From NCBI GenBank assembly GCA_001599295.1, contig BCGN01000002.1, forward strand, positions 496,001 through 560,000: a DNA stretch of 64,000 nt, given 5' to 3'. Shown here piece after piece: positions 22,984 to 58,997 of the stretch (its first letter is position 1; every line of letters begins with the position of its first letter). A program made the translations under genes and the position numbers. The stretch is from Sporopachydermia quercuum. Taxonomy: Eukaryota. The notes under the pieces are model-generated. The model ran no database searches, was not told the DNA's origin, and saw only the letters and a list, made by a program, of their open reading frames with translations.

Positions 22984-23325
22984 ATGCAGTTCAATAAAAT
23001 CACTCTTTTGGCAATTCTTTATGCCCTTACTGCTAGTACTGCTGCTGCTCCTACTCCTAATACTACTGAAGTTACCAAGAACTTGACTGATTCCGACTAT
23101 AATCTTCCACCTGGAGCAGTTTCATATGTTCTTGAATTTGATGAAGAAGAAGTCCCATTTATTTATTTTGATGAAGACGATGTTCCATCCATTGTTATTG
23201 TCAACTCTACTATTTTGGAGCATTATGAAGAAGCCGGTGAAGGCGGATCTGAATTGAAGAAGAGAGAAGCAGAAGCTGAATCTTGGAGAGGCCAACACTA
23301 TAGATGGGGACAACCTCTCTACTGA
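22984..23325 (+). CDS. MFalpha: Mating pheromone alpha-factor precursor with a single peptide repeat
   Basis: Signal peptide, pro-region with three N-X-T sites (NTT, NLT, NST; IVNSTI resembles S. cerevisiae FINTTI), Kex2 site KR, EAEA spacer, then ES-WRGQHYRWGQPLY (compare WHWLQLKPGQPMY). Confidence 0.9.
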   Translation: MQFNKITLLAILYALTASTAAAPTPNTTEVTKNLTDSDYNLPPGAVSYVLEFDEEEVPFIYFDEDDVPSIVIVNSTILEHYEEAGEGGSELKKREAEAESWRGQHYRWGQPLY

Positions 23326-30135: not shown

Positions 30136-30622
30136 TTAATGCTCTTTTCCAACTCTAGTAGCACAGAGGAACTTCAGATATGGTCAATTGTTAGCGAGAA
30201 GACTCAGTATTGTAGATTTTATAATATCAATCGTAATAACCGAAAAATACTTACAGGATAAATTTGAGCTTTTGAAAGATCCCAAACACCGTTTTCAACA
30301 TAAACATCCTTCTTCAAGATTTCTAAAGCATCTTCTTTCGATTCTGCCATAATCGAAAATGCGGATCCTTTGATATCAAGAGATTCACCTTCTTCAGGGT
30401 GCTTCTCCAATATAGCTCCTCCCATTTTGACAATACCTGCCTTCACCTTGGGTGGAACGGAGTCAATGTGTTGTTGTCTAACTTCCATTCGTTTAGCCAA
30501 CTGCAAAGTAACAGATTAGTATACGAATCTATCAGCTATCACCCTACATGAATCAATCATTCCGGAATACATACCACACCTTCGTAATCAGGCAGAATGC
30601 AGAGGAATTCTTTGAGAGCCAT
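30136..30622 (-). CDS. YCII-domain protein (copy 1); exons 30575-30622, 30255-30500, 30136-30171
   Basis: MALKEFLCILPDYEGV/LAKRMEVRQQHI...GGAIL...GSAF...KKDVYVENGVWD...IYP/FLCA. Donors GTATGT and GTAAGT. Confidence 0.85.
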
Positions 30623-30990
30623 TTTTAGTGGTAGTGTAAATCTCATTATATCAGTTAGAAGAAAAATTGTGCAATTCAAATATAACTATTATGGATAATG
30701 AAGATAAGTGTTTTGAGAAGATGAAATGAGTTAGAATTGAGAAATCAGGGTGATAAAATATGTCAGTAAGAATCGGGAGTATATAATTTGTCATGGAAAA
30801 TCTGGGGGATTTTAGGACACGGTTCATCTCATAACTTGAGTTGCGATCCGACGAATCTGTCCGCTATTAGGTTGCACTTATCCGATGCCAAAGGACAAAG
30901 TACAGTTGTACCATTATGTGTTCTGACATTCGTGACAATTTGAAATTTCATTCTCTATGTAAAGAAATAATACATCAACTGTTCTTTGAT

Positions 30991-31447
30991 TTAGCTCAAA
31001 ATAATCTAATTGCAAACAGTTAGTAACTGAATTAATAGGATTTTTATTTATCCCAAAGCAAATAAAACTTACAGGATAGATGGAAACACGAGACTCGTCA
31101 TCGACGTTCCAAACACCGGCCTTAGAGTAGACATCATTACGGAGGATTTCTTTTACAGCTTCCTTATCTTTTCCTCTCATGACGATATGAGAACCAATTA
31201 TCTTGGGAAGTTCACCTTCAGCTGGGTGTTCTTCCATGAGAGCACCCCCACTGACAATGATACCAGCAGCAACCTTTTCGGGAAGAGCAGCTAGATGAGC
31301 AGCCTTATTCTGGGCTCTGATGGGTCTCTATTGGTAATATTGTTAGCATGTTAAACAGATCCAAAGGCAATGCAAATGATACACATAGTGACACACCTTT
31401 CCATCCTGATCAAGGACAATACAGCAAAAAGTCTTAAGATCTGACAT
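30991..31447 (-). CDS. YCII-domain protein (copy 2); exons 31397-31447, 31073-31327, 30991-31005
   Basis: MSDLKTFCCIVLDQDGK/RPIRAQNKAAHL...GGALM...IGSHI...RNDVYSKAGVWN...IYP/IILS. Intron positions match copy 1; first donor is GTGTGT. Confidence 0.8.
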
Positions 31448-31794: not shown

Positions 31795-32844
31795 TCAGCC
31801 AAAGAGAGAAGCTTCAATGCCTTTATCATTGATATCTCGAAAATTAGGCAAATGCACATCGAGTGACGACGGAGACAATTGAGGATACTTTTCACTGATG
31901 ATTTTCATCAGCGAGGAATAATAGATATCATAACCTTTTTCAGAAAAATGAATACCTAATGTATAGAAGCGGTTAGTTGTCATGGATTTTAATGCTTTTG
32001 TTGCCCTTTCAAATTTAACATTTTTAACTTGTTTCTACTTTTCTCTTCTTTGAATGAAAAAAAAAAGTAGAGAGACAAAAAAAACTTACCATCACATAAT
32101 GCTTCAGTTGGATCAGCCAATTGACTGAATCCTTCAAATAAATCAACGAACCCAGTATTGAATTCTTGACTTACCTTCTTAACTACATCTCTATACAATT
32201 TATTCGTCGCAGAAGAACGAAATGACGTTGTGACTTCGGATGTTGTAATTTCGTTTATTATTCCTCTAGCCCTCAAGGCAGCATATTCTTCATTTTTCAC
32301 TTTAATCCATAATTTTTCATCGTGAGTTGCGGGACTTACCAGAATAACTTGTTTGATACCAGCGTCAGTTGCAATTTTGACAAGGCTAACTACATTCTGC
32401 TCATACTCATCAATTGGAACGTGTTGAATAGCCTCGCTATTTGAAGCATCATTCGTACCAAAAAATATGACTGCCAAAACTATCTTTTCAGCTCTTTCTA
32501 TTTCCAACAGTCGTGGAAGAATTTCAACCGCAACACGCGAAGTATACCCTGCATACCCTCTTTGTAGGAGATCTAATTTTCGTGAATAATCTTTCAAAAG
32601 CAAATGATGACACCAGTTAATATTCTACTACCTCAATCCTGCCAATAAAGCAGCATAACGAGTAAATAATCATCAAATTATATGCCCTTACTTTATGGAA
32701 AAGAAAATCCAAATCATACATACCATTTGCTAGCCGACGACCAAACTTAGTTCCAGCTTCATTGAACATGAACTCGGTGATAGAATCACCGAAGAACAAT
32801 ATCTTCTCGTAGTTAATTGAAGGTAGAAAAGAAAATACTGGCAT
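31795..32844 (-). CDS. IAH1: SGNH/GDSL esterase, isoamyl acetate-hydrolysing esterase family; exons 32724-32844, 32090-32590, 31795-31955
   Basis: FFGDSITE (block I), RGYAGY (II), FFGTNDA (III), and spliced DG/IHF (V); C-terminal LPNFRDI. Confidence 0.88.
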
Positions 32845-33273: not shown

Positions 33274-35052
33274 TCATTCAGTGTCTAAAGTCTTTTCTTT
33301 ATCACCTTCATCCTTCTCCTTCGGAGTGACATCAGAGCCAGTGAATGAAGGAGCGTAAGCACCATTGTTATTCATTGATGGGTCAATACCAGTCTCATCA
33401 AATTCTTCTTCTTCTTCAGCAAAATCTTCTTCCTGAGGAATGATCAAATTGAGAACCAGTGCAACAATACCAGCAATGGCATAACCGGTTTCAAGAACTA
33501 ATTCAATAGCATCCATGAAACCTCTGAGGCCACTGTTACTACCATCATAGGTAAAGACATATGAGAACCAGTCAGGGACTAATGTAGAGCCGAACCCGAA
33601 AAGACAGGCACCAGTAAGAACAAACCTATCACGTCTAGTGAATTTGATGGTAGAGATAATTCTCAAACCAGAAACAGCGACGGATGTGAACAAGAATGTA
33701 GTCATACCACCTAAAACTGGCTTAGGAATGGCAACCAATGCAGCTGCAAACTTGGAGAAGACACCCATAACGATCAAAAAGAAACAACACCAGTATCCAA
33801 CCATTCTGTTGGCACACTTGGTCAAAGAAATAACACCATTGTTTTGGGCAAAGGTGGACATAGGAGTGCAGGTCATAAGACCTGCGAAACAACCGTTCAA
33901 ACCATCGGCTAAAACACCACCTTGAATTCTGGACTCGTAAATCTTACCTTCAACTTCCAATCTAGATACATCACAAGTAGCTGTAATATCACCAATAGCT
34001 TCCATCATCAAAANAATNTAGACAGCTAAGAACGGTAAAACTGCAGGTCCATATAAACCTAACTTGAAAGTGTGGACCCAGATAAAGGTAGCAGCAGGAG
34101 CAGCNNTAATNCCNGTATCNNTGAAATATCCACATGCTGCTGCNACAATACAACCAACTAACAAACCAACAATGACGGCACATGATTTCATGATAGGTGA
34201 ACCATACTTTTCACAGATAACAATTGTAACGAAAACAAGGAAACCAAGACCGATGAATTGAGCGGAACCCCAAGGTGCCCTTCTTGGAGCCGCAGTATTT
34301 GATGGGCACATACTACCGGTACAATCACTACCACCACACCAGTCTTCCAGACCAGTAGCAATAAGTGAAACACCAATAAGTAAAACAACAGGACCAGTGA
34401 CGATAGCTGGGAAAATTTTTTGCAAGACTTGAGGAGGTAAGAAAGAAAGGATAATTTCAAGCAATGCGCATAAACAGGAAGTACCAATGATCATACCATA
34501 TCCATCGGGGCAAGGAAGCTGGGTTCCATCTGCAGCTGTTGGACAAGTTCCATTAGCATAAAGCTTAGGGAACACCCCATTGATAATCGTAATTGTAGCA
34601 AAAGAAGTACCAACTACTGAAACCAGACCAGTTCCGATGTAATAAGGTGTCTTGTAAATGTGAAAACGTGTAATTTGTATCAGTGATAAACAACCTGAGA
34701 CAATTAAAGATGCTGAGACTAAATACTGTTGAGCATCTTCTTCTAAGTTTGCTGCTAAGGAAATAATTAGTGGAGGTGTTACTACACCAGCAAGCATAGA
34801 TAAAGAATGTTGAAGACCCAAAATAAAACCCAAAACGAGAGGCATNTCACCGTTCAAGGGGAAAAAAGGTGATGGTTTTGGTTTTGTTCTTATGAAAGGA
34901 ATCTTAGGCATGAACAAATAACCATAATTGTATTCGCCTAATAACCCATCTTTTGTTGTCCATTTACGAAAACATCTTACTGGAAACGTCTTGATGGTTT
35001 CAAGATCAATGTGAAAATGGGCAGCGCCTGCTGCAACTTCTGGATCAGCCAT
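33274..35052 (-). CDS. NAT/NCS2 uric acid-xanthine permease, UapA/UapC-like (copy A)
   Basis: GLQH in TM1, NAT signature FAQNNGVISLTK, and a multi-pass membrane topology. Confidence 0.93.
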   Translation of the reverse strand: MADPEVAAGAAHFHIDLETIKTFPVRCFRKWTTKDGLLGEYNYGYLFMPKIPFIRTKPKPSPFFPLNGXMPLVLGFILGLQHSLSMLAGVVTPPLIISLAANLEEDAQQYLVSASLIVSGCLSLIQITRFHIYKTPYYIGTGLVSVVGTSFATITIINGVFPKLYANGTCPTAADGTQLPCPDGYGMIIGTSCLCALLEIILSFLPPQVLQKIFPAIVTGPVVLLIGVSLIATGLEDWCGGSDCTGSMCPSNTAAPRRAPWGSAQFIGLGFLVFVTIVICEKYGSPIMKSCAVIVGLLVGCIXAAACGYFXDXXIXAAPAATFIWVHTFKLGLYGPAVLPFLAVXIXLMMEAIGDITATCDVSRLEVEGKIYESRIQGGVLADGLNGCFAGLMTCTPMSTFAQNNGVISLTKCANRMVGYWCCFFLIVMGVFSKFAAALVAIPKPVLGGMTTFLFTSVAVSGLRIISTIKFTRRDRFVLTGACLFGFGSTLVPDWFSYVFTYDGSNSGLRGFMDAIELVLETGYAIAGIVALVLNLIIPQEEDFAEEEEEFDETGIDPSMNNNGAYAPSFTGSDVTPKEKDEGDKEKTLDTE

Positions 35053-38000
35053 GTTGTAATGATTTTCTACTGCAAAATTTTGGATATATTGTATGGTTGG
35101 TTTTCAAGCACAATATGCAAACCAATAGAGCATAAAGAGTAACAATATAAACCTAACATCTNAAATCTAAAATGAAGCAAAACAGAACCGAAATTTGAAT
35201 TGGGAATTTGGTCATTATATATAGATGCTACTCATTATTCATCGAATATTGAATAAAATGCACTCCAGCATCTTCAATTGTGAAGATAACAAATTGTGTC
35301 TCCATTCTGAGTTAACGTTAAACTTTACTGATTAGTATCAAAAACTTTGTACGAATATATGGAAGAAACCGAAAATTAATTCCATATATAGGAAAGTATG
35401 TTTATTATGCGTGTAAGAGCAAAAATAAAAGAAAGATTCTTATCCTAATCATTAACGGCTAATAAGCTACTCGTTTTTCAAGGCAGCTATGTAATATGGC
35501 TAAAAGAATTACTGAAAATGAAAAACTACTGGCCAAACCCAGGATTCCAAATGTTATGTTTCATAAAGGTAACCTGGTATTTTACTTTTCTGTAGTTCAA
35601 TGGTTAACATTTCCAATGTCAGTTGATCAAGTAGGTTTTTCACTGAGGTCTAGGAGTTTCCATACAATAATTATCACTGAGGATCTACTAAACAATTATC
35701 TATGTTTTCCTTGAATAATTTGCTTTCACAGATTTTGGTTCACATTCTACTGATCCGATTCACCTAACTCTAATTAAGCTTTGATTAAGATTCATTGAGA
35801 ACTAAGCTTATGAATAAAGTTTATTATTTTTATGGGAAGATTATATCAGGTAAGCTTTCTTAGTAAACTAATAGTTTGAGCTAAAGCATTTTTAGAGTAA
35901 ACTTTAATATAATAGAGCTCATCCAAGTATGAGAGATAGATTTGGTTAACCATTCGTTCCAGCTTTTATCCCAAAATTTATGCAGATATTTTCCAGAATC
36001 CTGATCTAATAGGCTTCAATAAAACCAGTTCCTTGCAAAAAATGAAAATAAAAGTAAGATAAAAAGGCAGGACCAGACTTTTCAAATATTGGTTAGCCAA
36101 TTCAGGGACGGTTTAGATTATTTTAAGGTTATCTACTAAGTCAAATATTTCTAACCCTATTTTCACGAAGCTAAAATTTTCAATATGACTCCAACAGAGT
36201 GAAAGGAGGAATNCATAAAATCAGGTTTTCTATTGTTAATTTCATTTGAGAGATCCCTTCGTTGATCAAATATCCAAATGCTAGATTCTTTAAAATATTT
36301 TTCCAAGATAACTGGATCGTTTTGGTAGTATTAAAGAGAGTTGCATTTATAGGTATTAGATTGACTTTGAAACATCAAACATTTTTGTCTTGGCAGCGCT
36401 CTTATTTTTTATATTTAATTTGGAAACGGAAGTTGAAATCAAAATTCTCCTTTTCAAGCTATCAACTAATAAATCTTGTTAGAGTCAAGACTTTTTACTT
36501 GAAATCCTTGATGATTGTTACATATTCAACTCTAAGACATTTAAAATAAGTAAGATTCTCTATACATTCAGTTCATATTTAGGATATAAAAGAAAAGATT
36601 CTTTTATTCTAAGACTCAATTTTAGCCTTGGCATTATTAAATTTTGAAAATTAAGTGAAAACTCAGGGGAAACCAAAAACAAAGAGATTAACTTCAGATT
36701 AGAATGAGTAGTGAGAAAGTTGTTCTCTTGTAACTCCTGATGAGGCAGTAAGAATATTCTCCACTTGACAATCTGCCTATTCACGATTAATAATAAATGA
36801 TAGTTCTTAGCTCNAAATAAAATTAGAAACGAAAAGAGTAAAATACTGTGGTAATCTTTTACTCAATACAGAATATTCCTTCCGCTGAAAAAGTACGCGG
36901 AGCCAATTTTTGACTCCGCCAAAAAATTTCCTCTGAAAGTAGGTGTCATGCACGATATTGATGAGCATCTTGCGGCATTCTCCAGTTTTACCCTAGGCTT
37001 ATTGCGAGTTTCACTACATATAGAAAAGCTGCCTACTCACATCGTGAGTAATAAAACTTTCATGTGATTTTAGTAATTTTCAGTACCATGAACTTCAACC
37101 CATTTTTATTTATCGGTCTTCTGCAGAAAATTCAAGGCAAGGCAATTAAACTTGGTTCACGGATCCTACGTATTTCTGTTATATTTCTTTTGTGTATATG
37201 GAGTCATTCAGTAATAAACCAGTTTTGCTTTTCCTGATGANTCCTGTGAACGTTTTAGATCCATCGAAGACAGTTTTTTTCAGTGTATGAAGAAGTTTTA
37301 AATAAGAAGGTGACTTTGTATTATAGTACACAGTACTATTTCCCAATCCTGCTTTCCCCAAAATTAGCATCAAGGTGGTAAATTCAATAGACAAGAAGAA
37401 AGCAGTTCATAAGATTTACTATACTGAATACTTTGAGAAGTGCAAACGGGAATCATCGACTTTGAAAGAATAAATGTATACTCCAATACAACAACGCGTT
37501 GGAAGCCTGATTCAATTTCGTCTATATAAGTAGGTGTTACCAAAAAATATTAAAAAATTTAGTATAGTAAAATGCTAAGTTTGAGAAATTGAAAAGTGAA
37601 TTCACTTTCATTGGACGAAGATGTTAATAATATATTAATAGTATAATTATATTCCAGCTCAAGCTCTTCATATCAATTCCTATAGTAAAACTTAACTATT
37701 CTATTTCAATTTATTTTGCTTTACTTTCTAAACTCTATTCTATATCTTCTTAACCACCTTCAACTATCGACATTCAGGCGCATTTCTTTTTTTGTTACCC
37801 AATCGCTCCTAACTTATTACCGTATTTTTTGCACCTAAACATCTATCTTGCTTCAGAAAAAGCTCAGAAGACTTCAAACTTAAAAATGTATTTCTTTATT
37901 CATTGTATTTTGTTCCAAATTTATAATAAATAATACTCATTGTCATTAACTTTTTTACTATGGAAAAATTGGATTTAGAAAATATTAATGAAACTTTAAA

Positions 38001-41000
38001 GTTAAAGCTTAGCATCAAAGTTTACTCAAACACCTCCTTTACCTGGGCATTGATAATGAAAACCTTATCTTAAAGTATCTTAAAGTTTTGGATTCTTCAT
38101 AACTATTTTTGGGAAAGCGAGTGTTATCAAATGGAAGCTTCTAATAATTTGACTGATAAGTCATTTTCTCAAATAGGCAACATCCTTGACCAAAGATCAT
38201 ACTGTATGATACATGATAAGAGTCTACTGATATCCAACGGTAATTAGCTATGGATTTCGACAGCCCAAATTGGAAAGCAGGTGAAAGTGAACTTGTTCGA
38301 ATTCATATGATTAGACGATTGAATTATAAGAAGAGTAGTTTCACCAAAGAATCGAGGAAGATGTTTTTCGGGACAACCAAGATTGAACATATTTTTTTAT
38401 CAGTCGCAAGGCTTAATACGCCGGATTAAATCGAGGCAAATACTATATTTTCATAAATCAAGTCATATTCTGTCAGCCATAAGGCTGTAGATATTTCATG
38501 AAGGCAAAGATTTTCTTCAAACAGGTGATCCAATATAGAAGTTAACTGCTACATTAATGATTTGCGAGAACGCATAACACTTACGTAAATGAATTATATA
38601 CAAAAAGTTTGATGTACAGAAGTTTTTGCATGATCGACCCTTTTTGAGTTAGGGAAGAAAATTATAGGAAGATAAATATACTGAAGTCCATCGCTAAATA
38701 TGAATCGTAGTNGTTTTTTTTTCGTACAACTTCAACTAAAATCTGCAGAAACCATTTACTCCAGTACAAACTTTAGTGATCTGTGCAGTCAAAATCTTAC
38801 CATTTCCTTGAGATGAAACTAAACTCCTGTGGAAGTTACCGAAAAAAATTGACATCTGGTCCATTTAGCTGGGTAACTAAGGGTCCTGCAAGATTTCTTC
38901 AATCTGGTGGAATTTGATCAAAGATGAGTCGAAGAAAGACCCAAAAAAAATCAAATATCTTACTCTCAAAGAATGCTATTGCAAATTTGATTATATACAA
39001 CTTGCCATATATATCAAGTGGTTTTTTATTGTATTTCCACTNTGCAGCTTTTTAAGCCGTAGGTGTACTGTATTGTATTCGTGATAACTAACTCAAAAAG
39101 GATTAGATAATCATATTCACTCATGTTAACCAAGTTTTTAAATATTAAGGTTTAATCCGAAAACTATGCATAAAACCTAAGATGCTCATTGAAACTTTAA
39201 AACAAAAGGTTTGAACTCAATTCATGGATTTCTAAAGACTGTATACCAAGAAAACCTATGGATATAATGCATAATATACAAAATTGTAAAGCTGTATCAA
39301 TATAGCTCCATTACCCAAAAAGCAAATAAGAATCGCAGATTTTTCTATTTTCAAATGAGAAGTTAATCCAATTCTTGTGTTGAAAGCGATAAATGAAATC
39401 TGGTTTCTTTATCATGGTTTGAAATAAGCCTTTTCCCAAATTATAGTTTACTCTACAACCTAATTGTAGTAAAACTTTATTTGCTCGCAGCAGAAAGTAT
39501 AATAATCTGTTTAAGCTCAAGGGAATAATAATTTTCATTTCAACAAAGATGGGATATACTCAGGTGAATGATTCTTCGTTAATCTTATTGAATTATAATG
39601 CTATTACCTACTTTTTGCCATGTTTGAATGATTTGTAAGCTATTGTTGTAACCATACAAGGTCGGTATCCGATAAAAAGTCTCCTTTCTAGTTTCAGAGA
39701 ATTAAGGGTATTTGGCTGGTCGGTGATAGGAATGAGCGGTCCCTGCAATAAAAAAAGTACAATCTCAAATATATTCATACTATAGACACAATTCAGCCAA
39801 AATCTCTTAAGAAATGTATATCAAAATTCGTTAATAGATTACTTAAAATATAACCGAAAAAATGATTTGATGGATTAAGAAGGGTTTTCAATGGATCTCA
39901 TTAAATCAGGACCCTCAGTATGTTTCCATAAAAATCAGAGGAAAAATCCTTACTATCTCGAATCAATATTGATACAGTTCCAATACCTCAGGTCAATAGA
40001 TCAAACAACTGAATGTTATTTTATTCTTATAAACCATAAAATATAATCTGTAATAATAGATCAAATGCTCTTTAGCGTCCCCAGTTTCAAGAACAATGTA
40101 ACATTAGATTTCATGGTCTTTTTTTAAGATTCAAATTAATTATATTGGTGATTGAACATTGTATGTAGATTTCTTATTTTCTTTTCCTTTTCCGAGTTTT
40201 CTGTGGAGATCGCCATGTAATACTTTTCTTTACAGAACATATCGGAAGCAATATAGCAGAACACCGATTTCTTTTTAAGAAATTATGTATCAAGGAGTAA
40301 TTCAAGTTCAGAGAGACAGTTTTCTTGATAATTCACGAAAATTTGATAACTATTATATTTTGTTTTCTGCTACAATTACAAGGTAGTAATTATTTAAACA
40401 GAATACATCGTTTTACAAGCCGCGCATAGAAAGACCCTAAGTTCCAATCGGTGATTCAAAATTGTGAGTGAGTTCCGCAAACTAAAGAAGATAACAAATA
40501 CTTTTCTATCTTACTTTCGAACGTAACTCAGCAGCGAACTTCCAATCAATTGTAATTGTTACATAAAACAGTTTATTCACATGCAAAATTTTCACTGCCT
40601 TCATTGAATCAAGAGCAATTCTTTTTTCTCCTTACCTTTCGAAGATATTCATTGCTTTGCAAATTTCTGTCTGGAAGTCTGATGATGTTCTATCGAGCTC
40701 GTTTGACCTCGTTTGTCAGTATGTTCTGCCGCATACGAAACTTTCACTTTCTGAGGAGGAAGGGAACATTTACGGTATAAAACCGTTGAAGCTTTTAACC
40801 TTAAAAAAAGCAATCTATTACATTTTATTTTCATCTTAGTATCTAAGTCAACCAAAGATTAATCTATATTTTATGATTATTTATTTTATCTTTTAAACGG
40901 AGATATCCTACATGAAACATATAATTTATCCATTTTCTTTTCACTGAATTATTTTCATGTAAGCTAAGACTACCAGAGACATTAGGCAAAAGTATAATTA

Positions 41001-41288
41001 ACGTTCAATGTACAACTCCGTAATAATGAACCCTTAATTCGGGCATTGTAAAGAAAAAAATGATCCAAAATGATGGATTTAGAAGCTAAAATAAACCTTA
41101 ATATCTAGAGTTCAGACATCTAGCATTATCATCATACAATTAACATTCCATTGCCAAGAAAGTACGAATAATTGTTAAATACACTTCGTTGTTAACTTTG
41201 AGTCAGATAAAGAATTAATCTTGCTCTAAATCTATCTCTTTGCTGACTGTCATGTCCATGTTCAATAATGATAATACTAAGTTCAATC

Positions 41289-41309
41289 AATATATATATA
41301 TATATATAT
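41289..41309. repeat. (TA)n microsatellite, possibly serving as the TATA element of permease copy B
   Basis: A run of about 10 TA units, roughly 200 bp upstream of the ATG at 41509. Confidence 0.75.
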
Positions 41310-41508
41310 CGGAACAAAGCCAGTTTATGAATACCAGCTTTGACTAGATCCCATAGCAGATGAACATTTTTCTGTTTGCTGATTCTTTATTCATTTTTCA
41401 ATTATTAGAAACATTCCAAAAATAATTTTACTATTTACTGTTGTTTACCTCAGAGATAGTGAAGGGATTGATATATCAACAGTCAATTCGTTAAGCATAA
41501 CCTGAAAA

Positions 41509-43290
41509 ATGGCTGATCCCGAAGTTCAGGCAGGCGCTGCCCATTTTCACCTTGATCTTGAAACCATCAAGACATTTCCATCAAGATGTTATCGTAAATG
41601 GACAACAAAAGATGGGTTATTAGGTGAATACAATTATGGTTATTTGTTCATGCCTAAGATTCCTTTCAAGAAGACTACACCTAAACCCTCACCTTTTTTC
41701 CCTTTGAATGGTGACATGCCTATTGTTTTGGGTTTTATTTTGGGTCTTCAACATGCATTAGCTATGCTTGCTGGTGTAGTAACACCTCCACTAATTATTT
41801 CCTTAGCAGCAAATCTTGAAAGTGATGTTCAACAGTACATGGTTTCTGCTTCATTAATTGTATCTGGATGTTTGTCATTGATTCAGATTACTAGATTTCA
41901 CATTTACAAGACACCTTATTACATCGGAACTGGTCTGGTTTCAGTAGTTGGTACTTCTTTTGCTACAATTACGATTATCAATGGTGCTTTCCCCAAGCTT
42001 TATGCAAATGGAACTTGTCCAACAGCTGCAGATGGAACCCAGCTTCCTTGCCCCGATGGATATGGTATGATCATTGGTACATCAGCTTTGTGTTCCCTAA
42101 TCGAAATTTGCCTTTCTTTCTTACCTCCTAAAGTCCTACAAAAGATTTTCCCATCTATCGTCACTGGTCCTGTTGTTTTACTTATTGGTGTTAAACTTGT
42201 TACTACTGGTATGCAGAACTGGTGTGGTGGTAGTGATTGTGTCCATGGAATGTGCCCACCTAATCCTCTGGCTCCAAGAAGGGCACCCTGGGGTTCCGCT
42301 CAATTCATCGGTCTTGGTTTCCTTGTTTTCGTTACAATTGTTATCTGTGAAAAGTATGGTTCACCTATCATGAAATCATGTGCCGTCATTGTTGGTTTGT
42401 TAGTTGGTTGTATTGTNGCAGCAGCATGTGGATATTTCANNGATACNGGNATTANNGCTGCTCCTGCTGCTACCTTTATCTGGGTCCACACTTTCAAGTT
42501 AGGTTTATATGGACCTGCAGTTTTACCGTTCTTAGCTGTCTANATTNTTTTGATGATGGAAGCTATTGGTGATATTACAGCTACTTGTGATGTATCTAGA
42601 TTGGAAGTTGAAGGTAAGATTTACGAGTCCAGAATTCAAGGTGGTGTTTTAGCCGATGGTTTGAACGGTTGTTTCGCAGGTCTCATGACTATCACTCCCG
42701 TGTCCACCTTTGCCCAAAACAATGGTGTTATTTCTTTGACCAAGTGTGCCAACAGAATGGTTGGATACTGGTGTTGTTTCTTTTTGATCATCATGGGCGT
42801 CTTCTCCAAGTTTGCAGCTTCACTGGTTGCCATTCCTAAGCCAGTTTTAGGTGGTATGACTACATTCTTGTTCACATCCGTCGCTGTTTCTGGTTTGAGA
42901 ATTATCTCTACCATCAGATTCACTAGACGTGACAGATTTGTTCTTACTGGTGCTTTAGTTTTTGGTTTTGGTGCCACCATGGTGTATGACTGGTTCTCAT
43001 ATGTCTTCACCTATGAAGGTGATAACAATGGCCTCAGAGGTTTCATGGATGCTATCGAATTAGTTCTTCAGACCGGTTTTGCTGTTGCAGGTATTGTTGC
43101 ATTGATTCTCAATTTGATCATTCCTCAAGAAGATGATTTTGCTGAAGAAGAAGAAGAATTTGATGAGACTGGTATTGACCCATCAATGAATAACAATGGT
43201 GCTTACGCTCCTTCATTCACTGGCTCTGATACCACCCCAAAGGAAAAGATTGAGAGTGACAAGACTGACAGTGACAAGGAAAACATTTGA
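41509..43290 (+). CDS. NAT/NCS2 uric acid-xanthine permease, UapA/UapC-like (copy B)
   Basis: Close paralog of copy A with the same GLQH and FAQNNGVISLTK motifs. Confidence 0.93.
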   Translation: MADPEVQAGAAHFHLDLETIKTFPSRCYRKWTTKDGLLGEYNYGYLFMPKIPFKKTTPKPSPFFPLNGDMPIVLGFILGLQHALAMLAGVVTPPLIISLAANLESDVQQYMVSASLIVSGCLSLIQITRFHIYKTPYYIGTGLVSVVGTSFATITIINGAFPKLYANGTCPTAADGTQLPCPDGYGMIIGTSALCSLIEICLSFLPPKVLQKIFPSIVTGPVVLLIGVKLVTTGMQNWCGGSDCVHGMCPPNPLAPRRAPWGSAQFIGLGFLVFVTIVICEKYGSPIMKSCAVIVGLLVGCIXAAACGYFXDXXIXAAPAATFIWVHTFKLGLYGPAVLPFLAVXIXLMMEAIGDITATCDVSRLEVEGKIYESRIQGGVLADGLNGCFAGLMTITPVSTFAQNNGVISLTKCANRMVGYWCCFFLIIMGVFSKFAASLVAIPKPVLGGMTTFLFTSVAVSGLRIISTIRFTRRDRFVLTGALVFGFGATMVYDWFSYVFTYEGDNNGLRGFMDAIELVLQTGFAVAGIVALILNLIIPQEDDFAEEEEEFDETGIDPSMNNNGAYAPSFTGSDTTPKEKIESDKTDSDKENI

Positions 43291-43699: not shown

Positions 43700-44610
43700 A
43701 AGTAATCCGAAAACAATTCCAGCAGATGCAGAAGTGATCGTACAATCGTTGAATTATCTCCAATTCATTAGTACCTTAATAAAGTCCGTTATTGTAGGCG
43801 AACAAATAGGATCTTGCAGCTTATCCATATTGGTCAACCAGTAACTCAGGAGCAAAAACCATCAACACAAGGTCCTGAATAAGTAAATACAGCAACTGAG
43901 TCATCCTTATCATCAATTGCTCCTACGGATAATATCCTCTAGCTGAAGAAGGAGAATAATCACAGGCAGACATGGCCTTATTCCCTGCTGATATCTCTAT
44001 TGTTATATCCTGTTTCAGCAATTCCTCTAGGGCATTATTCAAAATCCGGTTTTTCGCAAGGGACATTGCAATCGTTAAGACACTCGGGCAACCGGTGATT
44101 TCAATAATCTATATTGGATATGTTCAATACCTGAATTACTGTGGTCAAAGAAGATTCCCCTCGTTTGCTGGCAAATCTAGGGGAAATTCGCAAGGTCTAC
44201 TTTCTTTGCAACCTATATGTTCTACTTCCAGCAATACATATATTTGTGTCAATTCATTTAAATAATACTTCAAGCTGTAGTGTTCTCACCTGTAAAATCA
44301 ACACCAGCGGCAGCCTATTTTCGAAATCTTTATGTTGAAATACACCAAAACCCATAATCTATATATCGACACCAATACCCGTACTATCGTCATAAGTGTA
44401 AATACTGCTACCATCAACTGGTTAGTTGTCCTTTCTCCAATATGCAGTTATCACTTATAAAAATGGGGTCTTCAGGGCACCTGTTTCCTCTAATTTTCCT
44501 TAACTTGACAATCAGCNAAATGGCTTACAGCATCTTCTTCGATTTTGTCAATGGTCAAAACTCTATTCAGGGAGATGGCTGTAGCCTAAGTTTGCTAATC
44601 GAATGAAGAT
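43700..44610 (-). pseudogene. Decayed subtilisin-like (S8, proteinase K/B type) serine protease pseudogene; boundaries approximate
   Basis: Minus-strand fragments in the correct order, across stops and frameshifts: IEEDAV, YTYDDSTGIGVDI*IMGFGVFQHKDFENR, GVDFTG, IAGSRTY/VAKKVDL, SAGNKAMSACDYSPSSA, VGAIDDKDDSVAVFTYSGPCVDGF. Confidence 0.85.
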
Positions 44611-47587: not shown

Positions 47588-50500
47588 CTATGGCAATGAG
47601 GTATTAGATGAATTATTTCCTCGGTTCAAGTTGTAAACCAGGTTCGATGGTGATTCGTTTCCGGCTTCTTCTTCACTCTTCAGGTTCAGGGAGTCCAAGT
47701 CGTTGTCTACTTCCACTCGATTTCCGTTTTGAGACTTCGCCCTAACTTGACTTCCACTTTGCGTTCCGCCTGACCCCTTTCCATTTTCCTGCTTCTTCTC
47801 TTGTAACTCTTTTACCAAATCTATCAACTTGTTCGAGCTTTCTTCATCAAATTCATCTCCAGAGCTTATAGGCGATGCCCCACTTGTCGCACTTCTGCTT
47901 CCGCTTCCACCTGTGGTCAAAATGGGTGAAAATGCCATAAATGTATTGACTTTGTTTCTTCCAAAACCTCGAAATGTACTATACTTCTTCCGTGCTCCAC
48001 TTACCATTTTCCCGTTTGCCCCACTTTCTTCACTTTCCTCACTAAAAACATACAGAACTCCAACTACAACAAACACCACAATTCCTAAAAATAACACTAA
48101 GACAACCTCCAGCACCCGCAACATTCGAACCGCTGAATTGAGTTCCGATATCCGTCCCGAAGACTCTTGAATATACCCTTGTAGCTTCCGCTGTTCTCGG
48201 TTGAGCTCAGTAAACATTTCTCGTCTCATCTCGGTGTACAGGAACTTCAACTCATCAATCTCCTTAACTACAGTCCCATTGAGTCCCTTTATCAACGACA
48301 GGAGAATCTTGTTCTGTCGTTTATCAAATTTGCCTAATGCATCTTCAGCAAATTTAGCTCTTTCATGGAAATATTGAAATGTTAAAGAAGCATTTGATTC
48401 AAGAAATGATAACCGGTTCATTATTTTTTTATAGATTGATTCTTGAGTTGATACCGAACCAGATGACGAGTCATAATCAATGCTAGGGTTACCATCAGGG
48501 TTAGGGCTTGAATTGGGATTACTCGTTGAGTTATAATTTATGTTGTAATTATGGTAATTATTGTCATCCTCTGATTCTGTAAGTTTGTTTTTATTTTTGT
48601 CAGAACAACCAATTATTCCATTTACTTCAATACATCCATCATTTATGTTATCATTGTTACAGTTATTGTTATTGTTGTTATAGTTATCATTAATATTATT
48701 ATCATTGCATTGATTGTTATTGCAAATCGAGCTTTCCAAATATTTTGTCATTGCCGCTAAGAACGGATCAATCATTCCAATTTCAAATTCTGTTTCAAAT
48801 GATGGGTCTAACAAAATCTCATTCATTATTGAAGATTCATTAAGCGGTGTCAGAGAGGGGTACTTTGGATCTACTTCCGAGAGCTCGATATTTCCACTTC
48901 CACTTGTACTTCCGATTCCACTTCCGATGCTCTCCTCGGTAACCCCCTTCTCTTTCGCTTCTTTCCCCTCTTTCTGATCTCGGAACTCTTCCATCATTGT
49001 CTTCCCATACACCCTTAAAAGTGACACAGGACAATAAAACTCAGACCCATAATGCTCTAAAAATTCAACCCGGAGATAGCGAGCCCAAATCAACGGGTTA
49101 GCAATCTGAAAGTATTGTAAGTTCCGTTTGTTCTCGGCTTGGAACTCGCCTAATATCCTCCATCCTGAATCGGTTCCTGTTTTACTGTCATCACTATTCT
49201 TCTTATTANTATTAATGTTATTGCTACTAGTTGGGAAGCGATCTGCCACACTGATCCGGATCGTTTTAAACATTGAACTGAAAAACTCAAAATTGCCGAT
49301 AACAACAGTTTCAACTAATATATCATTACACATCTCAACTATCACGTATTTATTCTTAACTGAGCATTCATTGAGCATGTAAATATCCTTATTCTCTGTT
49401 AGAATAGCATTTGCTTTGCTTGCTTCTTTGTTGCTTTTAACAATAGTAGCTGCGCAGTCAATTGATGCATAATTAAACCGTTCAGCATATAATTTACCCT
49501 CTGGTTCTGGGTTTGACTCGGGTAGGTCTGAACCGGATGAGAAAAACCCGATATCAATTTCTAGATCTTCCCCAACGGGTTCATCGGAAGTCCTTTGATT
49601 ATTGTTTCTGTTCACTGAATTTATGTTATTATTATTGTTGTTGTTATTATTATTAAATTGATCGTCTTGTCCCAATTCTTTTAGTTTGTTTCGTTTCCAA
49701 TCGTCAAAGGAAATGAACTGCGGCGATGAATCAAAATATAGTAAATCTTCTTCAATAATGCCTGCTGATGATGACAATGACAATGTTGTTGTTGTTGTTG
49801 TTTTTGATGGTGATAATGGACTCTCGTTGTCAATTGATTCTATGATAGTGTTAATATCTTGTTGGAATAATGTCTTGGATAAGGCGTTTACTGATTGGTT
49901 AGGAAGAGTTACGATTGGAATATTGGTTGTAGATGTACTTGTTATCGGGGAATTAATGTCAGTACTTGCTTGTATTTCTGCGACAGTTTGTTTAGTAGTT
50001 TTCGACGTGTCTTCGGCAATTTTTATACTAGATTCTGCAACACTATCTTCGTTCATTTCTGCATCAATCTTTGCATCAATTTCAGCAGTTTCTGGTTTTA
50101 TTGATATTCTANTCTGCTTTGAAAGAATTGAAGCTTCAATTTGTTGAGAGTCTTCAGTATTCTCTGTTTCGGGTTCGATTATCATATCAATAGGATTGCG
50201 AACAATACTAGGGTTGTTGCTAACTCTGCTAGTACCAATAGTATGATTTATTGTATTAACATTATCGTTGATCATGTTGTTGTTGATATTATTGTTGATG
50301 CTGCTTTTACTATTGTCATTGTTATTGCTTTTATCAACAATAGTATTAATATCACGACTAAAACTGTCAACCTCAATAATGTCATCATTCACACTCGTAC
50401 TCACAGAACTTATTGCATCTATAACAATACTACTATAATCAGTGTTGCCATCAACGATAATAGTAGGATCTTTATTAACATTATCATTAATACTGCCACT

Positions 50501-51289
50501 AGAGCTATCATGACTATCACCAGCAATAACACTGTTCTCCTTGCCATAGGAAACATTATCTGTAATACTACTAATAACAATACCAATAGCAGAAACTCCA
50601 CTGAGAGCACTCCTTTCAACATTATTCATATCATCACCATTAGTACTTGTATCAATATCTCCTTTATTAAGGGTTGCTTCAGTTCTTTTTATTCTACTTT
50701 TTTCTTCTTCGCTANTTTCGTTCCCTCCATTGCTACATTTTTCAGCTGGCGCTAACCCGAAACCTCTGGTGGCACTTTGTCCTTCATTCGAACTACTTGA
50801 ATCATTTGCTTCTCCTGATCCTTTTAATCTTTTTGAACTTGCTAATCGAATTGTAGTTCTAGGTATGCTTTCTTGGTATTCGGAACTTCTAATCAACTCT
50901 TGTTGATCTTCAAGTTCAGACTTGTTGTTGGTATTATAAATACTATGAGAGTTAGTAGTACAATTTGAAACTCTGTGAGATCCATATGTATGCTCCGGAT
51001 TGTTGTGGATGTCATTAATGTTAATTATCGACTGACCTGCTGATATTATGGTTGAGGTTGAAACACTAATGGAATTCCTACCAACATTAATTTCTCCTTC
51101 CTCACTGACAATAATTCCATTGTCACTATTTGATCCTATAGTAGCAATGGTCTCCTTACATCTGATGTTACTATTATTCTCATTGGCTGTACCAGCAACA
51201 TTCCCATACACTCCAAGACTATGATATAACACTATCAAACACCAAACAAGCCAGCCGACTTTCTTACAATAAATAACGAAGTAAACCAT
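47588..51289 (-). CDS. SLP1: Mid-SUN domain ER membrane protein with large low-complexity expansions
   Basis: FISFDDWK, ERFNYASIDCAATIVKSN, KDIYMLNEC, GNFEFFSSMF, WARYLRVEFLEHYGSEFYCPVSLLRVYGKTMMEEF, TQESIYKKIMNRL; C-terminal TM. Confidence 0.9.
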   Translation of the reverse strand: MVYFVIYCKKVGWLVWCLIVLYHSLGVYGNVAGTANENNSNIRCKETIATIGSNSDNGIIVSEEGEINVGRNSISVSTSTIISAGQSIININDIHNNPEHTYGSHRVSNCTTNSHSIYNTNNKSELEDQQELIRSSEYQESIPRTTIRLASSKRLKGSGEANDSSSSNEGQSATRGFGLAPAEKCSNGGNEXSEEEKSRIKRTEATLNKGDIDTSTNGDDMNNVERSALSGVSAIGIVISSITDNVSYGKENSVIAGDSHDSSSGSINDNVNKDPTIIVDGNTDYSSIVIDAISSVSTSVNDDIIEVDSFSRDINTIVDKSNNNDNSKSSINNNINNNMINDNVNTINHTIGTSRVSNNPSIVRNPIDMIIEPETENTEDSQQIEASILSKQXRISIKPETAEIDAKIDAEMNEDSVAESSIKIAEDTSKTTKQTVAEIQASTDINSPITSTSTTNIPIVTLPNQSVNALSKTLFQQDINTIIESIDNESPLSPSKTTTTTTLSLSSSAGIIEEDLLYFDSSPQFISFDDWKRNKLKELGQDDQFNNNNNNNNNNINSVNRNNNQRTSDEPVGEDLEIDIGFFSSGSDLPESNPEPEGKLYAERFNYASIDCAATIVKSNKEASKANAILTENKDIYMLNECSVKNKYVIVEMCNDILVETVVIGNFEFFSSMFKTIRISVADRFPTSSNNINXNKKNSDDSKTGTDSGWRILGEFQAENKRNLQYFQIANPLIWARYLRVEFLEHYGSEFYCPVSLLRVYGKTMMEEFRDQKEGKEAKEKGVTEESIGSGIGSTSGSGNIELSEVDPKYPSLTPLNESSIMNEILLDPSFETEFEIGMIDPFLAAMTKYLESSICNNNQCNDNNINDNYNNNNNNCNNDNINDGCIEVNGIIGCSDKNKNKLTESEDDNNYHNYNINYNSTSNPNSSPNPDGNPSIDYDSSSGSVSTQESIYKKIMNRLSFLESNASLTFQYFHERAKFAEDALGKFDKRQNKILLSLIKGLNGTVVKEIDELKFLYTEMRREMFTELNREQRKLQGYIQESSGRISELNSAVRMLRVLEVVLVLFLGIVVFVVVGVLYVFSEESEESGANGKMVSGARKKYSTFRGFGRNKVNTFMAFSPILTTGGSGSRSATSGASPISSGDEFDEESSNKLIDLVKELQEKKQENGKGSGGTQSGSQVRAKSQNGNRVEVDNDLDSLNLKSEEEAGNESPSNLVYNLNRGNNSSNTSLP

Positions 51290-57313: not shown

Positions 57314-58997
57314 TATACGTGACTTATGGTTTTGGCTCTTTGGAAACGGGAAACCTCAGTTTGAGGGGGTTAGAAAGCGGACGCAAGTTTTCGGGATGTT
57401 TGAGGAGTAATTTCAGAAAAGAAACAAGATTTCTGCCTGGATCTTGGGTTGTGGTTCCGAAGTGATTAGCCGAAGCGCCGTTAAATCAGGTGGGNTGCCA
57501 GTTGACAATTGAGGTAGAACAACAAGCCGAAAAAGGCTATGTGAAATGCTGATAGTTTCCTAATTCAGTAAACCACACGATTTTATTGCCAGGTTAGATT
57601 TTGTATACTCCAAAGTAGGTTCCAATGCGGAATATCTATCGTTTTCATAGTTCCGTTCCGAAGTTCATGTTGCAAAAGGCTTGATACTGAATCAAAAGCT
57701 GAGAGGTGATGGTTACAGTGANTGTCTTATAATAGGGGNTACAAATTTGAGTTGGGAAGAAGCGGATATGATACTGCCTTGCATAAATGGGTGTAGCAGT
57801 TTCCGAAAATAGATTTTGTATGAGTATCTTCTCCGGTATAGTGNAATTTGTGAAACATACGGAAATGATGTGAGAAATGGATGTATCTGGGTTGATGGTA
57901 TGCTCCGGTTTAAATGAATATTTTAGCATACAAGCTATTCTGAATAGAAGGTTAAGATAAGAATACTTTGATTCTTCAATTTCTGCATTAAATTTGGCTT
58001 TTCTCGACAGAGTTTGTTCTACTGCTAAACAACACACAGTGTCTAAAATAACAGCTGAATTTGCAACCATATCCATCAGAACTACTACATCAATATTACA
58101 GTTATAAAAAGATTTTTATTTGCTCTAATATAATAATACTTTACTATAAGTTCTAATAATACCGATTCTTTAGATAATATCATAGCCCTCTTCTGTTAAT
58201 ATTTTCTGTCATTTATCACGCCTTCACTAATAATAACCGGAACTAAATTTTTTATGTCCCATTTCATATACTCATACACGTTCCGCTTCGAGATTTTTTC
58301 TTCGTCCAATAACAGGTGCAATTGTACAACACAAACAACTCCATTTTGTACCATTGTCTGGTGACAAGTGTACGAACACTCCCACAGTCCTTTATTATTC
58401 TCCTATTTCTTCTCCTTCTACTTCTATTTTACACGCTTTTTATATTATATTATGATGATGTATAAGGAGATTTAATGCAAAAGACCATTAAAGGGCTCTA
58501 GATTGATAGCCAGCTGGAAGTATTGCGTGCAGAACGAAGATCCACGTGTTTTTGGGTCGTAGTTGTGTGGATGTTAGCTGGTTGATACGGACAGTGTGGA
58601 ATACAGGTCTAGGAAGTGAATAAAGTGCTCAGGGAAAGATAGTTGAGCTGGTTATTTATATCAATAGTGTCTAGGGAGGTTAAACATCTGTCTTGAAGGT
58701 GATATTGTTGGTCACCATCTGAGTTTTGAAGGCAAAAGATAGAATTTGCTGTGTGATTCATTTGGCGGACTGATGACAGATTGATAACAAGACGATCTAA
58801 TTGCGCATTTACGGAGANCAAATTATTAGACACGGTCCGAAGATTAAGAGGATTATTTTATTAGTACTCAGTCTTCTACTTCTTAAATGTACTAATTGTT
58901 ACAACAGAAGAAGAAAGGTTGAATATATATCGGAGATAATAATCCAAACATAGGAAACTATACACATTTTTTCGGAAACAATAACAATATTTTGGAA

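What the first reader, a model, noticed from the sequence alone, without database searches (positions are those of the whole stretch)
33274..43290. Inverted, divergently transcribed purine-permease pair: candidate flip-flop or gene-conversion locus
Seen: two UapA-like genes face away from each other across 6.4 kb and form a ~1.8-kb inverted repeat. Identity is mosaic. A 395-bp block (33878-34272 = 42289-42683) and a 96-bp block in the normally variable C-terminal tail (33331-33426 = 43135-43230) are identical even at synonymous sites, and they alternate with clearly diverged segments. Nine N positions are the same in both copies. Known: recombination between inverted repeats inverts the intervening DNA, as in flip/flop MAT switching in methylotrophic yeasts. 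Inference: a crossover in the identical core would invert the spacer and join each promoter and N-terminal half to the other C-terminal half, giving chimeric transporters. At minimum the pattern suggests repeated gene conversion. Caveat: the shared Ns show that the assembler could not separate the copies there, so part of the identity may be an artefact.
Basis: partly seen in the sequence, partly recalled or inferred. Interest (0 to 1): 0.8.

Follow-up and report, generated by a model that had tools for sequence, protein, structure and literature searches.

The report
Gene conversion between inverted purine permeases
A budding yeast carries two old, back-to-back copies of a purine-transporter gene that have repeatedly overwritten short patches of each other, which is a well-known process; the longest 'identical' patch is partly an assembly artefact, and nothing seen shows that the DNA between the copies flips.

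Summary
The inverted pair is real. Contigs of three public runs (two studies) span the 6.46-kb spacer with copy A's start at one end and copy B's at the other, and carry both copies' letters. Both genes are intact UapA-type purine permeases (524 of 575 residues identical). The duplication is old: the flanks no longer align and the diverged islands are near synonymous saturation. Synonymous identity is strongly patchy even with the N-bearing core removed (3% versus 69% of codons differ), so repeated short gene conversion is well supported. The 395-bp 'identical' block is probably not identical: its nine shared Ns are spaced like copy-to-copy differences, not like background Ns. That leaves tracts of 128, 86 and 136 bp. 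No data here test orientation. The locus lacks what defines flip/flop MAT switching: near-identical repeats and genes inside the invertible segment. Its closest analogue, the Saccharomyces FF region, re-inverts only over evolutionary time. Rare inversion giving hybrid permeases is possible (about 0.3 among strains); a regulated switch is unlikely (about 0.04). The scan noted a similar inverted transporter pair before, in another genome. Verdict: new example of a known process.

The parts
33274..35052 (-). Copy A: intact UapA-type NAT/NCS2 purine permease, 592 aa; TM14 gate motif E-T-G-Y (Tyr at the position of UapA F528)
41509..43290 (+). Copy B: intact UapA-type NAT/NCS2 purine permease, 593 aa; TM14 gate motif Q-T-G-F
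35053..41508 (.). 6456-bp spacer holding both divergent promoters (inferred). Single-copy in the genome, 31% GC, no Rfam match, no Pfam match above cut-off in 28 ORFs scanned, spanned by one 6682-bp contig in each run
33299..35055 (-). Left arm of the inverted repeat (coding sequence only)
41506..43262 (+). Right arm of the inverted repeat (coding sequence only)
42289..42416 (+). 128-bp identical tract (= 34145-34272); A-type and B-type contig arms both run into it
42417..42456 (+). Cluster of 7 shared Ns (= 34105-34144), probably hidden differences between the copies
   Evidence: inference
42457..42542 (+). 86-bp identical tract (= 34019-34104)
42543..42547 (+). Two shared Ns (= 34014 and 34018)
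42548..42683 (+). 136-bp identical tract (= 33878-34013), the longest N-free tract
41896..41984 (+). 89-bp identical tract (= 34577-34665)
42007..42080 (+). 74-bp identical tract (= 34481-34554)
42701..42789 (+). 89-bp identical tract (= 33772-33860), covering the NAT signature motif
42824..42916 (+). 93-bp identical tract (= 33645-33737)
43135..43230 (+). 96-bp identical tract (= 33331-33426) in the poorly conserved C-terminal tail (mean top-residue frequency 0.37 in 120 homologs)
41814..41895 (+). Most diverged island (24 differences in 82 bp; 8 of 9 fourfold sites differ)
34846..34846 (-). Lone N in copy A; contig difference counts (13 in X1 and X3, 12 in X2) imply two alleles, one equal to copy B's base
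   Evidence: inferred from counts, the row itself was not displayed
31989..32624 (-). Left neighbour: main exon of a GDSL lipase/esterase gene (the name IAH1 is recalled)
43852..44087 (-). Right neighbour: remnant of a subtilisin-family gene, matched in two pieces in different frames
   Evidence: tblastn with the genome's own subtilisin, E 3e-11

Best explanation
An old local inverted duplication of a UapA-type xanthine/uric acid permease gene, kept partly alike by recurrent short, mostly non-crossover gene conversion between copies 6.5 kb apart. SHOWN: two intact paralogs head to head; unalignable flanks; a patchwork of identical tracts and saturated islands. INFERRED: (1) breaks in one copy are occasionally repaired from the other, copying patches that survive as 30-140 bp identical tracts; (2) conversion is confined to the coding sequence because only that still has homology; (3) the nine shared Ns are positions where the copies (or their alleles) differ, left unphased by the assembler between the two longest tracts; (4) both genes encode purine/H+ symporters under separate promoters, perhaps with slightly different kinetics or selectivity. 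A crossover-type repair would invert the spacer and give hybrid genes, as a rare by-product rather than a switch.
For: Layout: one 6682-bp contig per run joins 35060 to 41509 on opposite strands in 3 of 3 runs, and 40 of 40 displayed difference rows carry copy A's letter (85 rows in all, 45 not shown). Age: 1-kb flanks align no better than shuffles (scores 27 and 28; shuffle means 26.0 and 24.6). Mosaic without the core: 57 of 380 synonymous-capable codons differ, in 65 runs (0 of 20,000 permutations as few); a two-state model gives 3.2% versus 68.8% differing, 2dlnL 43.9 against at most 6.7 in 25 permutations. Saturation predicts about 53% differing, and each of the 8 longest tracts has chance 1e-7 or less at saturation under the pair's own codon usage. 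With Ns counted as differences there are 8 tracts of 70 bp or more against 0.6 expected. The 96-bp tract lies in an unconserved tail. A and B are sisters (SH-aLRT 100) on a long stem. N spacing matches paralog differences. A tandem sugar-transporter pair in the same genome shows the same pattern, a 288-bp identical tract at 82.6% overall. NAT motifs are intact.
Against: No outgroup DNA closer than about 73% protein identity was found, so direction and dates of conversion cannot be tested and concerted evolution could not be shown on a tree with orthologs. With Ns as differences, the longest-run test at fourfold sites alone is not significant (p 0.12), and the 25-codon window test without the core is modest (p 0.013). 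Most tracts lie in conserved protein regions, so constraint helps keep them. The letters under the Ns were not seen. The two studies may have sequenced the same strain, and one may be the source of this assembly.
Confidence: 0.8

Rival explanations
1. Recurrent, unregulated inversion polymorphism, like the Saccharomyces FF region: the same conversion process sometimes resolves as a crossover, so strains (or the two homologs of a diploid) differ in spacer orientation and carry hybrid permeases. Compatible with the best explanation and additive to it.
For: Geometry is right. In Saccharomyces, homogenized inverted repeats re-invert the enclosed region, with about 4% of conversions resolved as crossovers (PMC9731477 Discussion). 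Komagataella centromere mid regions (PMC5010909) and C. albicans CEN4 (PMC6591007) are orientation-polymorphic. At least eight tracts of 70 bp or more mark past exchanges here. Short-read contigs cannot phase across the core, so the assembled orientation is unverified.
Against: FF repeats are 4.2 kb and 97.6% identical, intergenic DNA included; these are 1.76 kb and 91%. Even FF did not change in about 53,800 mitoses and 950 meioses. Two percent divergence cut repair between ectopic substrates about 5-fold in S. cerevisiae (PMC6511840). The contig arms displayed are wholly A-type or wholly B-type, apart from the one polymorphic site, though contigs drop rare forms.
Confidence: 0.3
2. Regulated or high-frequency flip-flop: the cell inverts the spacer, for example under nitrogen starvation, to put a different C-terminal gate under each promoter, a phase-variation switch for purine uptake.
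For: A flip would exchange 32 N-terminal differences against 19 differences in residues 392-580 plus the divergent last 12-13 residues, including Tyr/Phe at the UapA F528 gate position. Nitrogen starvation induces MAT inversion in Ogataea and Pachysolen.
Against: No orientation data. Repeats are far from identical. No gene or silent site is moved. Both orientations would give two expressed, full-length permeases with 25 of 26 examined functional positions the same, so the payoff is small. Hybrid-making crossovers at many tracts would erode fixed A/B islands, yet saturated islands persist (inference).
Confidence: 0.04
3. The shared Ns are a segregating conversion tract rather than fixed differences: one of four copies in a diploid carries the other letters (3:1), or both loci are heterozygous.
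For: Background Ns (0.6 per kb) look like heterozygous sites, and A's lone N has one allele equal to B's base. Shared polymorphism is a known sign of conversion (PMC3924837 passage).
Against: A fixed 2:2 difference between the copies needs fewer events and matches the other islands, whose arms have about equal depth.
Confidence: 0.2
4. Islands of divergence are kept by selection for different substrate preference or regulation while conversion homogenizes the rest.
For: Known signature (PMC3924837 passages). The segment 42193-42288 has more nonsynonymous than synonymous change per site (0.225 vs 0.154), and the TM14 gate motif differs.
Against: Counts are small and segments were chosen after seeing the differences. 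The 42193-42288 segment covers a variable loop. All substrate-binding residues are the same. Tyr at the F528 position occurs in 13 of 120 homologs and in the third paralog.
Confidence: 0.3
5. The whole pattern is an assembly artefact (one gene or two alleles assembled twice).
For: Shared Ns; assemblers are known to inflate inverted repeats in yeasts (PMC6692504 passages).
Against: One contig carries both different gene starts at its two ends; A-type and B-type arms each have about single-copy depth and shared pieces have more.
Confidence: 0.02
6. The spacer is an inverted-repeat centromere core, as in Komagataella phaffii or Candida tropicalis.
For: It is the longest gene-free gap in the window and the lowest in GC by a small margin (0.309; 13 other gaps 0.313-0.373).
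Against: Those centromeric repeats are virtually identical and lie in non-transcribed regions; here the arms are 91% identical intact genes. No GC3 trough in the neighbouring genes. The spacer has no similar sequence elsewhere in the genome.
Confidence: 0.04

Closest known systems
Saccharomyces FF (flip/flop) region on chromosome XIV (Salzberg et al. 2022, PMC9731477)
   Same: Inverted repeat made of duplicated protein-coding genes, homogenized by ectopic gene conversion; a crossover would invert the enclosed DNA; short reads cannot resolve orientation.
   Different: FF repeats are 4.2 kb, 97.6% identical including intergenic DNA, and enclose 15 genes; both orientations are documented. Here the arms are 1.76 kb, 91%, coding only, enclose no gene, and no second orientation has been seen. 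A flip here would make hybrid proteins with many more differences.
Interlocus gene conversion between linked paralogs (review PMC3924837)
   Same: Identical tracts of tens to hundreds of bases in an old duplicate pair, diverged islands between them, chimeric haplotypes possible.
   Different: No difference in kind; shared polymorphism and ortholog trees could not be tested here.
Flip/flop mating-type switching, FF1/FF2 (Ogataea polymorpha, Komagataella phaffii, Pachysolen tannophilus; PMC6692504, PMC5010909)
   Same: Inverted repeats about 2 kb long flanking a unique segment in a budding yeast.
   Different: [quoted passage not shown] Here: no enclosed genes, 91% identity, no evidence of induction.
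Aspergillus nidulans UapA, NAT/NCS2 xanthine-uric acid/H+ symporter (PDB 5i6c; PMC4837479, PMC3405029)
   Same: Gapless-like alignment over residues 27-542 (E 4e-216); Gln-His, Glu-x-x-Gly-Asp and NAT signature motifs and the binding residues are kept in both copies.
   Different: Both copies have Lys for R417, Arg for A469 and Val for M151, as most yeast homologs do; copy A has Tyr for F528. Substrates untested.
Chimeric maltotriose transporter MALT434 of Saccharomyces eubayanus (Baker and Hittinger 2019, PMC6448821, abstract)
   Same: Precedent that ectopic recombination between transporter paralogs can make a hybrid with a new property.
   Different: That chimera was isolated and assayed; here hybrids are hypothetical.
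Long inverted repeats containing ORFs in Candida albicans (Todd et al. 2019, PMC6591007)
   Same: ORF-containing repeats are common and serve as rearrangement breakpoints, including inversions.
   Different: The inverted examples in the passages read are over 99% identical, or centromeric.

Membership tests
Canonical NAT/NCS2 (UapA-like) permease | Pfam PF00860 above cut-off and full-length match to UapA | tested here: met
   216 bits vs cut-off 27; residues 27-542 match 5i6c, E 4e-216
Canonical NAT/NCS2 (UapA-like) permease | TM1 Gln-His, TM8 Glu-x-x-Gly-Asp, TM10 Gln-Asn-x-Gly-x4-Thr-Arg/Lys (as defined in PMC5972032) | tested here: met
   Q81-H82, E351..D355, Q403-N404..G406..T411-K412 in both copies
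Canonical NAT/NCS2 (UapA-like) permease | Transport of xanthine/uric acid | not testable with these tools
   needs uptake assays
Paralogs under interlocus gene conversion | Identical tracts, synonymous sites included, beyond chance in an otherwise diverged pair | tested here: met
Paralogs under interlocus gene conversion | Old duplication (diverged flanks, saturated islands) | tested here: met
Paralogs under interlocus gene conversion | Paralogs closer to each other than to their orthologs in sister species, tract by tract | tested here: inconclusive
   A and B are sisters, but no close relative was found, so this fits a lineage-specific duplication equally well
Paralogs under interlocus gene conversion | Shared polymorphism between copies | tested here: inconclusive
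   one lone N in A with an allele equal to B; letters under the nine shared Ns not seen
Flip/flop (FF1/FF2) switch | Inverted repeat flanking a unique segment | tested here: met
Flip/flop (FF1/FF2) switch | Repeats identical or nearly so over kilobases | tested here: not met
   91.4%; longest N-free tract 136 bp, at most 395 bp
Flip/flop (FF1/FF2) switch | [quoted passage not shown] | tested here: not met
   no ATG ORF of 100 aa or more in the spacer; none of 28 shorter ORFs scanned reached a Pfam cut-off
Flip/flop (FF1/FF2) switch | Both orientations exist and inversion is inducible | not testable with these tools
   only short-word contigs were held for the three runs; they break at the shared tracts
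FF-type recurrent inversion polymorphism | Homogenized gene-containing inverted repeat | tested here: met
   met in patches only
FF-type recurrent inversion polymorphism | Two orientations among strains or species | not testable with these tools
   no long reads and no related assemblies
Inverted-repeat centromere (K. phaffii type) | Virtually identical repeats in a non-transcribed, gene-free region | tested here: not met
   arms are intact genes, 91% identical
Inverted-repeat centromere (K. phaffii type) | CenH3 binding | not testable with these tools
   needs ChIP-seq

The most novel reading that the evidence does not exclude
The pair works as a reversible, possibly nitrogen-responsive inversion switch in which the repeats are the genes themselves: flipping the promoter-bearing spacer recombines N-terminal and C-terminal halves into two alternative sets of purine permeases with different TM14 gates. 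That would be a shufflon-like phase variation of a nutrient transporter in a eukaryote. The evidence does not exclude it because orientation could not be observed. The weaker form, slow orientation polymorphism among strains, is about 0.3 likely but is a known kind.
Probability: 0.04. Interest if true: 0.85.

Novelty: new member of a known kind. Interest (0 to 1): 0.25.

Why it matters
As it stands it is a tidy example of patchy gene conversion between old transporter paralogs, and a warning that shared Ns in a repeat hide differences rather than show identity. If long reads showed both orientations, it would be a compact natural test of whether inversion between 91%-identical genes yields functional hybrid transporters, with UapA genetics as a guide. 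A regulated flip would extend programmed inversion in yeasts beyond mating type.

Tried and rejected
A protein search with the core found no fragment above 78% identity among 62 hits. Depth arithmetic on the last bin gave 2.29, 1.51 and 1.71 times single copy for the core record: inconclusive. No RNA holder listed, which is no evidence on expression. Relatives: best full-length hits 62-73% among the 120 listed of 2320; 4 of 4 own-genome proteins not in the collection by exact look-up; one metagenome locus, L045, with a single permease and none of five neighbour genes within about 10 kb upstream. Flp recombinase (PF05202) and MATalpha (PF04769) searches found nothing, but the controls were silent too: no evidence. 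Peptidase_S8 family search did not list the right-flank remnant; tblastn did. GATA sites in the spacer are not enriched (GATAAG 4 vs 4.2 expected). No tRNA or Rfam match. Codon bias as the cause of the tracts: rejected. Rate asymmetry as a check on N/C phasing: uninformative (A closer to homologs 11 vs 9 in the N half, 7 vs 9 in the C half). A same-genome control for shared Ns among 35 transporter loci gave one similar pair, with a single long tract and no shared N, so it neither tests nor refutes the collapse idea. The careful tree did not finish; the quick tree is used. Literature: no description of an inverted UapA pair in the listings; 'F528Y' in 0 papers; the library lacks most subscription papers, and no supplements were read.
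Full report
Observation. The window holds two long ORFs facing away from each other: copy A at 33274-35052 (minus, 592 aa) and copy B at 41509-43290 (plus, 593 aa). They form the only long repeat in the window, arms 33299-35055 and 41506-43262, 1757 nt, 91.4% identical, no gaps, 6450 nt apart. Both proteins are PF00860 and align to A. nidulans UapA over residues 27-542; 524 of 575 compared residues are identical between them. The genome (16.4 Mb, 15 contigs) has one more family member, on contig C5, 68% identical at DNA level. CTG aligns with Leu at conserved columns. A quick tree of 53 rows (the three paralogs and 50 of the 120 listed homologs) makes A and B sisters (SH-aLRT 100) on a long stem, inside a 14-row group with Nadsonia, Lipomyces and Geotrichum proteins (97); the careful search did not finish. 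No homolog among the 120 listed exceeds 73% identity.

Is the layout real? Three public DNA runs hold the stretch, from two samples and two studies, all as short-word contigs; one may be the source of this assembly and the strains may be the same. I laid them on 35060-42416, the spacer plus the N-terminal half of B. In 3 of 3 runs one 6682-bp contig covers the spacer, ending in B's start on one side and, through a strand-changing joint, 113 bases of A's start on the other. Between shared tracts each run has an arm identical to B and an arm with A's letters, at roughly equal depth. All 40 displayed difference rows (of 85) carry A's letter (checked). Fifteen records were laid per run, 8 displayed; their identity classes fit the count the assembly predicts (my tally). 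So two different genes sit head to head, and the N-terminal mosaic is not an assembly error.

What are the shared Ns? Single Ns occur throughout, 125 in 209,595 bases of background (window outside the core plus 34 of 35 other loci; L009 left out for its dense N stretch), and only 2 neighbour pairs lie within 10 bp. In the core 6 of 8 gaps are that short, two are adjacent NN, and true A/B differences are spaced the same way (116 of 143 gaps; Fisher p 1e-7 against background). L009 has a 220-bp stretch with about 70% N, which suggests this assembly writes N where two alternative paths disagree (inference). The two tracts flanking the N clusters, 128 and 136 bp, are the only N-free tracts longer than 96 bp. 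The simplest reading is that the copies differ at these nine sites and the assembler could not phase them. The block is then 128 + 86 + 136 bp, not 395. A segregating conversion tract is the alternative. It also follows that nothing I could see verifies which N-terminal half is joined to which C-terminal half.

Is the mosaic more than chance? Yes. With Ns counted as differences, 8 tracts reach 70 bp against 0.6 expected (0 of 5,000 codon permutations), and fourfold sites are clustered (37 of 257 differ, 38 runs, 0 of 20,000); the longest-run test at fourfold sites alone drops to p 0.12. With the core removed, 57 of 380 same-residue degenerate codons differ, in 65 runs (0 of 20,000); a two-state model gives 3.2% and 68.8% differing (2dlnL 43.9; at most 6.7 in 25 permutations); a fixed-window test gives p 0.013. 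Saturation under the pair's own codon usage predicts about 53% differing, and each of the 8 long tracts shares 8-15 codons that are not the commonest, so codon bias does not explain them. The 96-bp tract lies in a tail with mean conservation 0.37. One kilobase upstream and downstream align no better than shuffles. An old duplication with recent identical patches is the signature of interlocus gene conversion (PMC3924837, passages). The same genome has a tandem sugar-transporter pair, 82.6% identical with a 288-bp identical tract, so the process is not special to this locus.

The proteins. All three canonical NAT motifs (PMC5972032, passages) are intact in both. Of 26 UapA positions examined (24 from passages of PMC4837479 and PMC3405029; D388 and T484 recalled, the latter mapping to Leu and so probably misnumbered), 25 are the same in A and B. 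The exception is the F528 gate position: Tyr in A, Phe in B; three residues before it A has Glu and B has Gln (Glu in 113 of 120 homologs). The F528 changes reported to widen specificity are Ala, Ser and Thr; 'F528Y' was found in 0 papers, and Tyr occurs in 13 of 120 homologs. Functional divergence is possible but not shown.

Would it flip? A crossover in any shared tract would invert the spacer and swap promoter plus N-terminal part against C-terminal part; at the core that exchanges 32 differences against 19 plus the tail. That is geometry, not evidence. The spacer is single-copy, has no Rfam match and no Pfam match above cut-off in the 28 ORFs scanned. [quoted passage not shown] The closer analogue is the Saccharomyces FF region (PMC9731477; abstract, Introduction, two Results sections and Discussion read): gene-containing repeats of 4.2 kb at 97.6%, homogenized by conversion, re-inverting over evolutionary time but unchanged in about 53,800 mitoses and 950 meioses. 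The repeats here are shorter and more diverged, and 2% divergence already lowered ectopic repair about 5-fold in S. cerevisiae (PMC6511840, passages). I put orientation polymorphism among strains at about 0.3 and a regulated switch at about 0.04. Hybrid transporters from paralog recombination have precedent (PMC6448821, abstract only), as do inversions at long repeats in C. albicans (PMC6591007, passages). Nitrogen-induced switching in Ogataea is cited from a search listing only (PMC5720833).

Novelty. The listings showed no description of an inverted UapA pair in a yeast; the library lacks most subscription papers and no supplements were read. The scan's own notes hold one similar case, an inverted MFS transporter pair with conversion in another genome (unchecked). 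The process is well known. Verdict: a real old inverted paralog pair under patchy gene conversion, with the headline 395-bp identity partly an artefact and inversion untested. New member of a known kind; interest 0.25.

Noticed in passing
L012 and L013 (G000:C1:1241238-1250694): Tandem, same-strand sugar-transporter pair, 82.6% identical overall, with identical tracts of 62, 288 and 74 bp near one end: a second gene-conversion case in this genome.
   Followed up: partly
L009:663-883 (G000:C2, about 968,224-968,444): A 220-bp stretch with about 70% N interleaved with bases, as if two unrelated equal-length sequences were overlaid. Its length is close to the 227-bp palindromic repeat in the scan's note e1-7518138; not tested.
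   Followed up: partly
window 43852-44087 (-): Subtilisin-family remnant in two frames, E 3e-11 against the genome's own subtilisin on C1.
   Followed up: yes
window 30219-30515 and 30914-31327 (-): Two neighbouring YCII-domain genes on the same strand, a small tandem duplication; weak Pfam scores just under cut-off.
   Followed up: no
window 22984-23325 (+): Short mating-factor-alpha precursor gene (PF05436).
   Followed up: no
L003:1242-2966 (G000:C5): Third, distant UapA-family paralog (574 aa) on a long branch; it has Asn where 113 of 120 homologs have Tyr near TM8, and Ser at the UapA A363 position.
   Followed up: partly
window 47588-51289 (-): SUN-domain (Sad1/UNC) gene of 1233 aa with long Asn/Ser-rich low-complexity stretches.
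   Followed up: no
window 57495-57844: Four Ns within 350 bp in the gap before the PI4-kinase gene, a denser patch than background.
   Followed up: no
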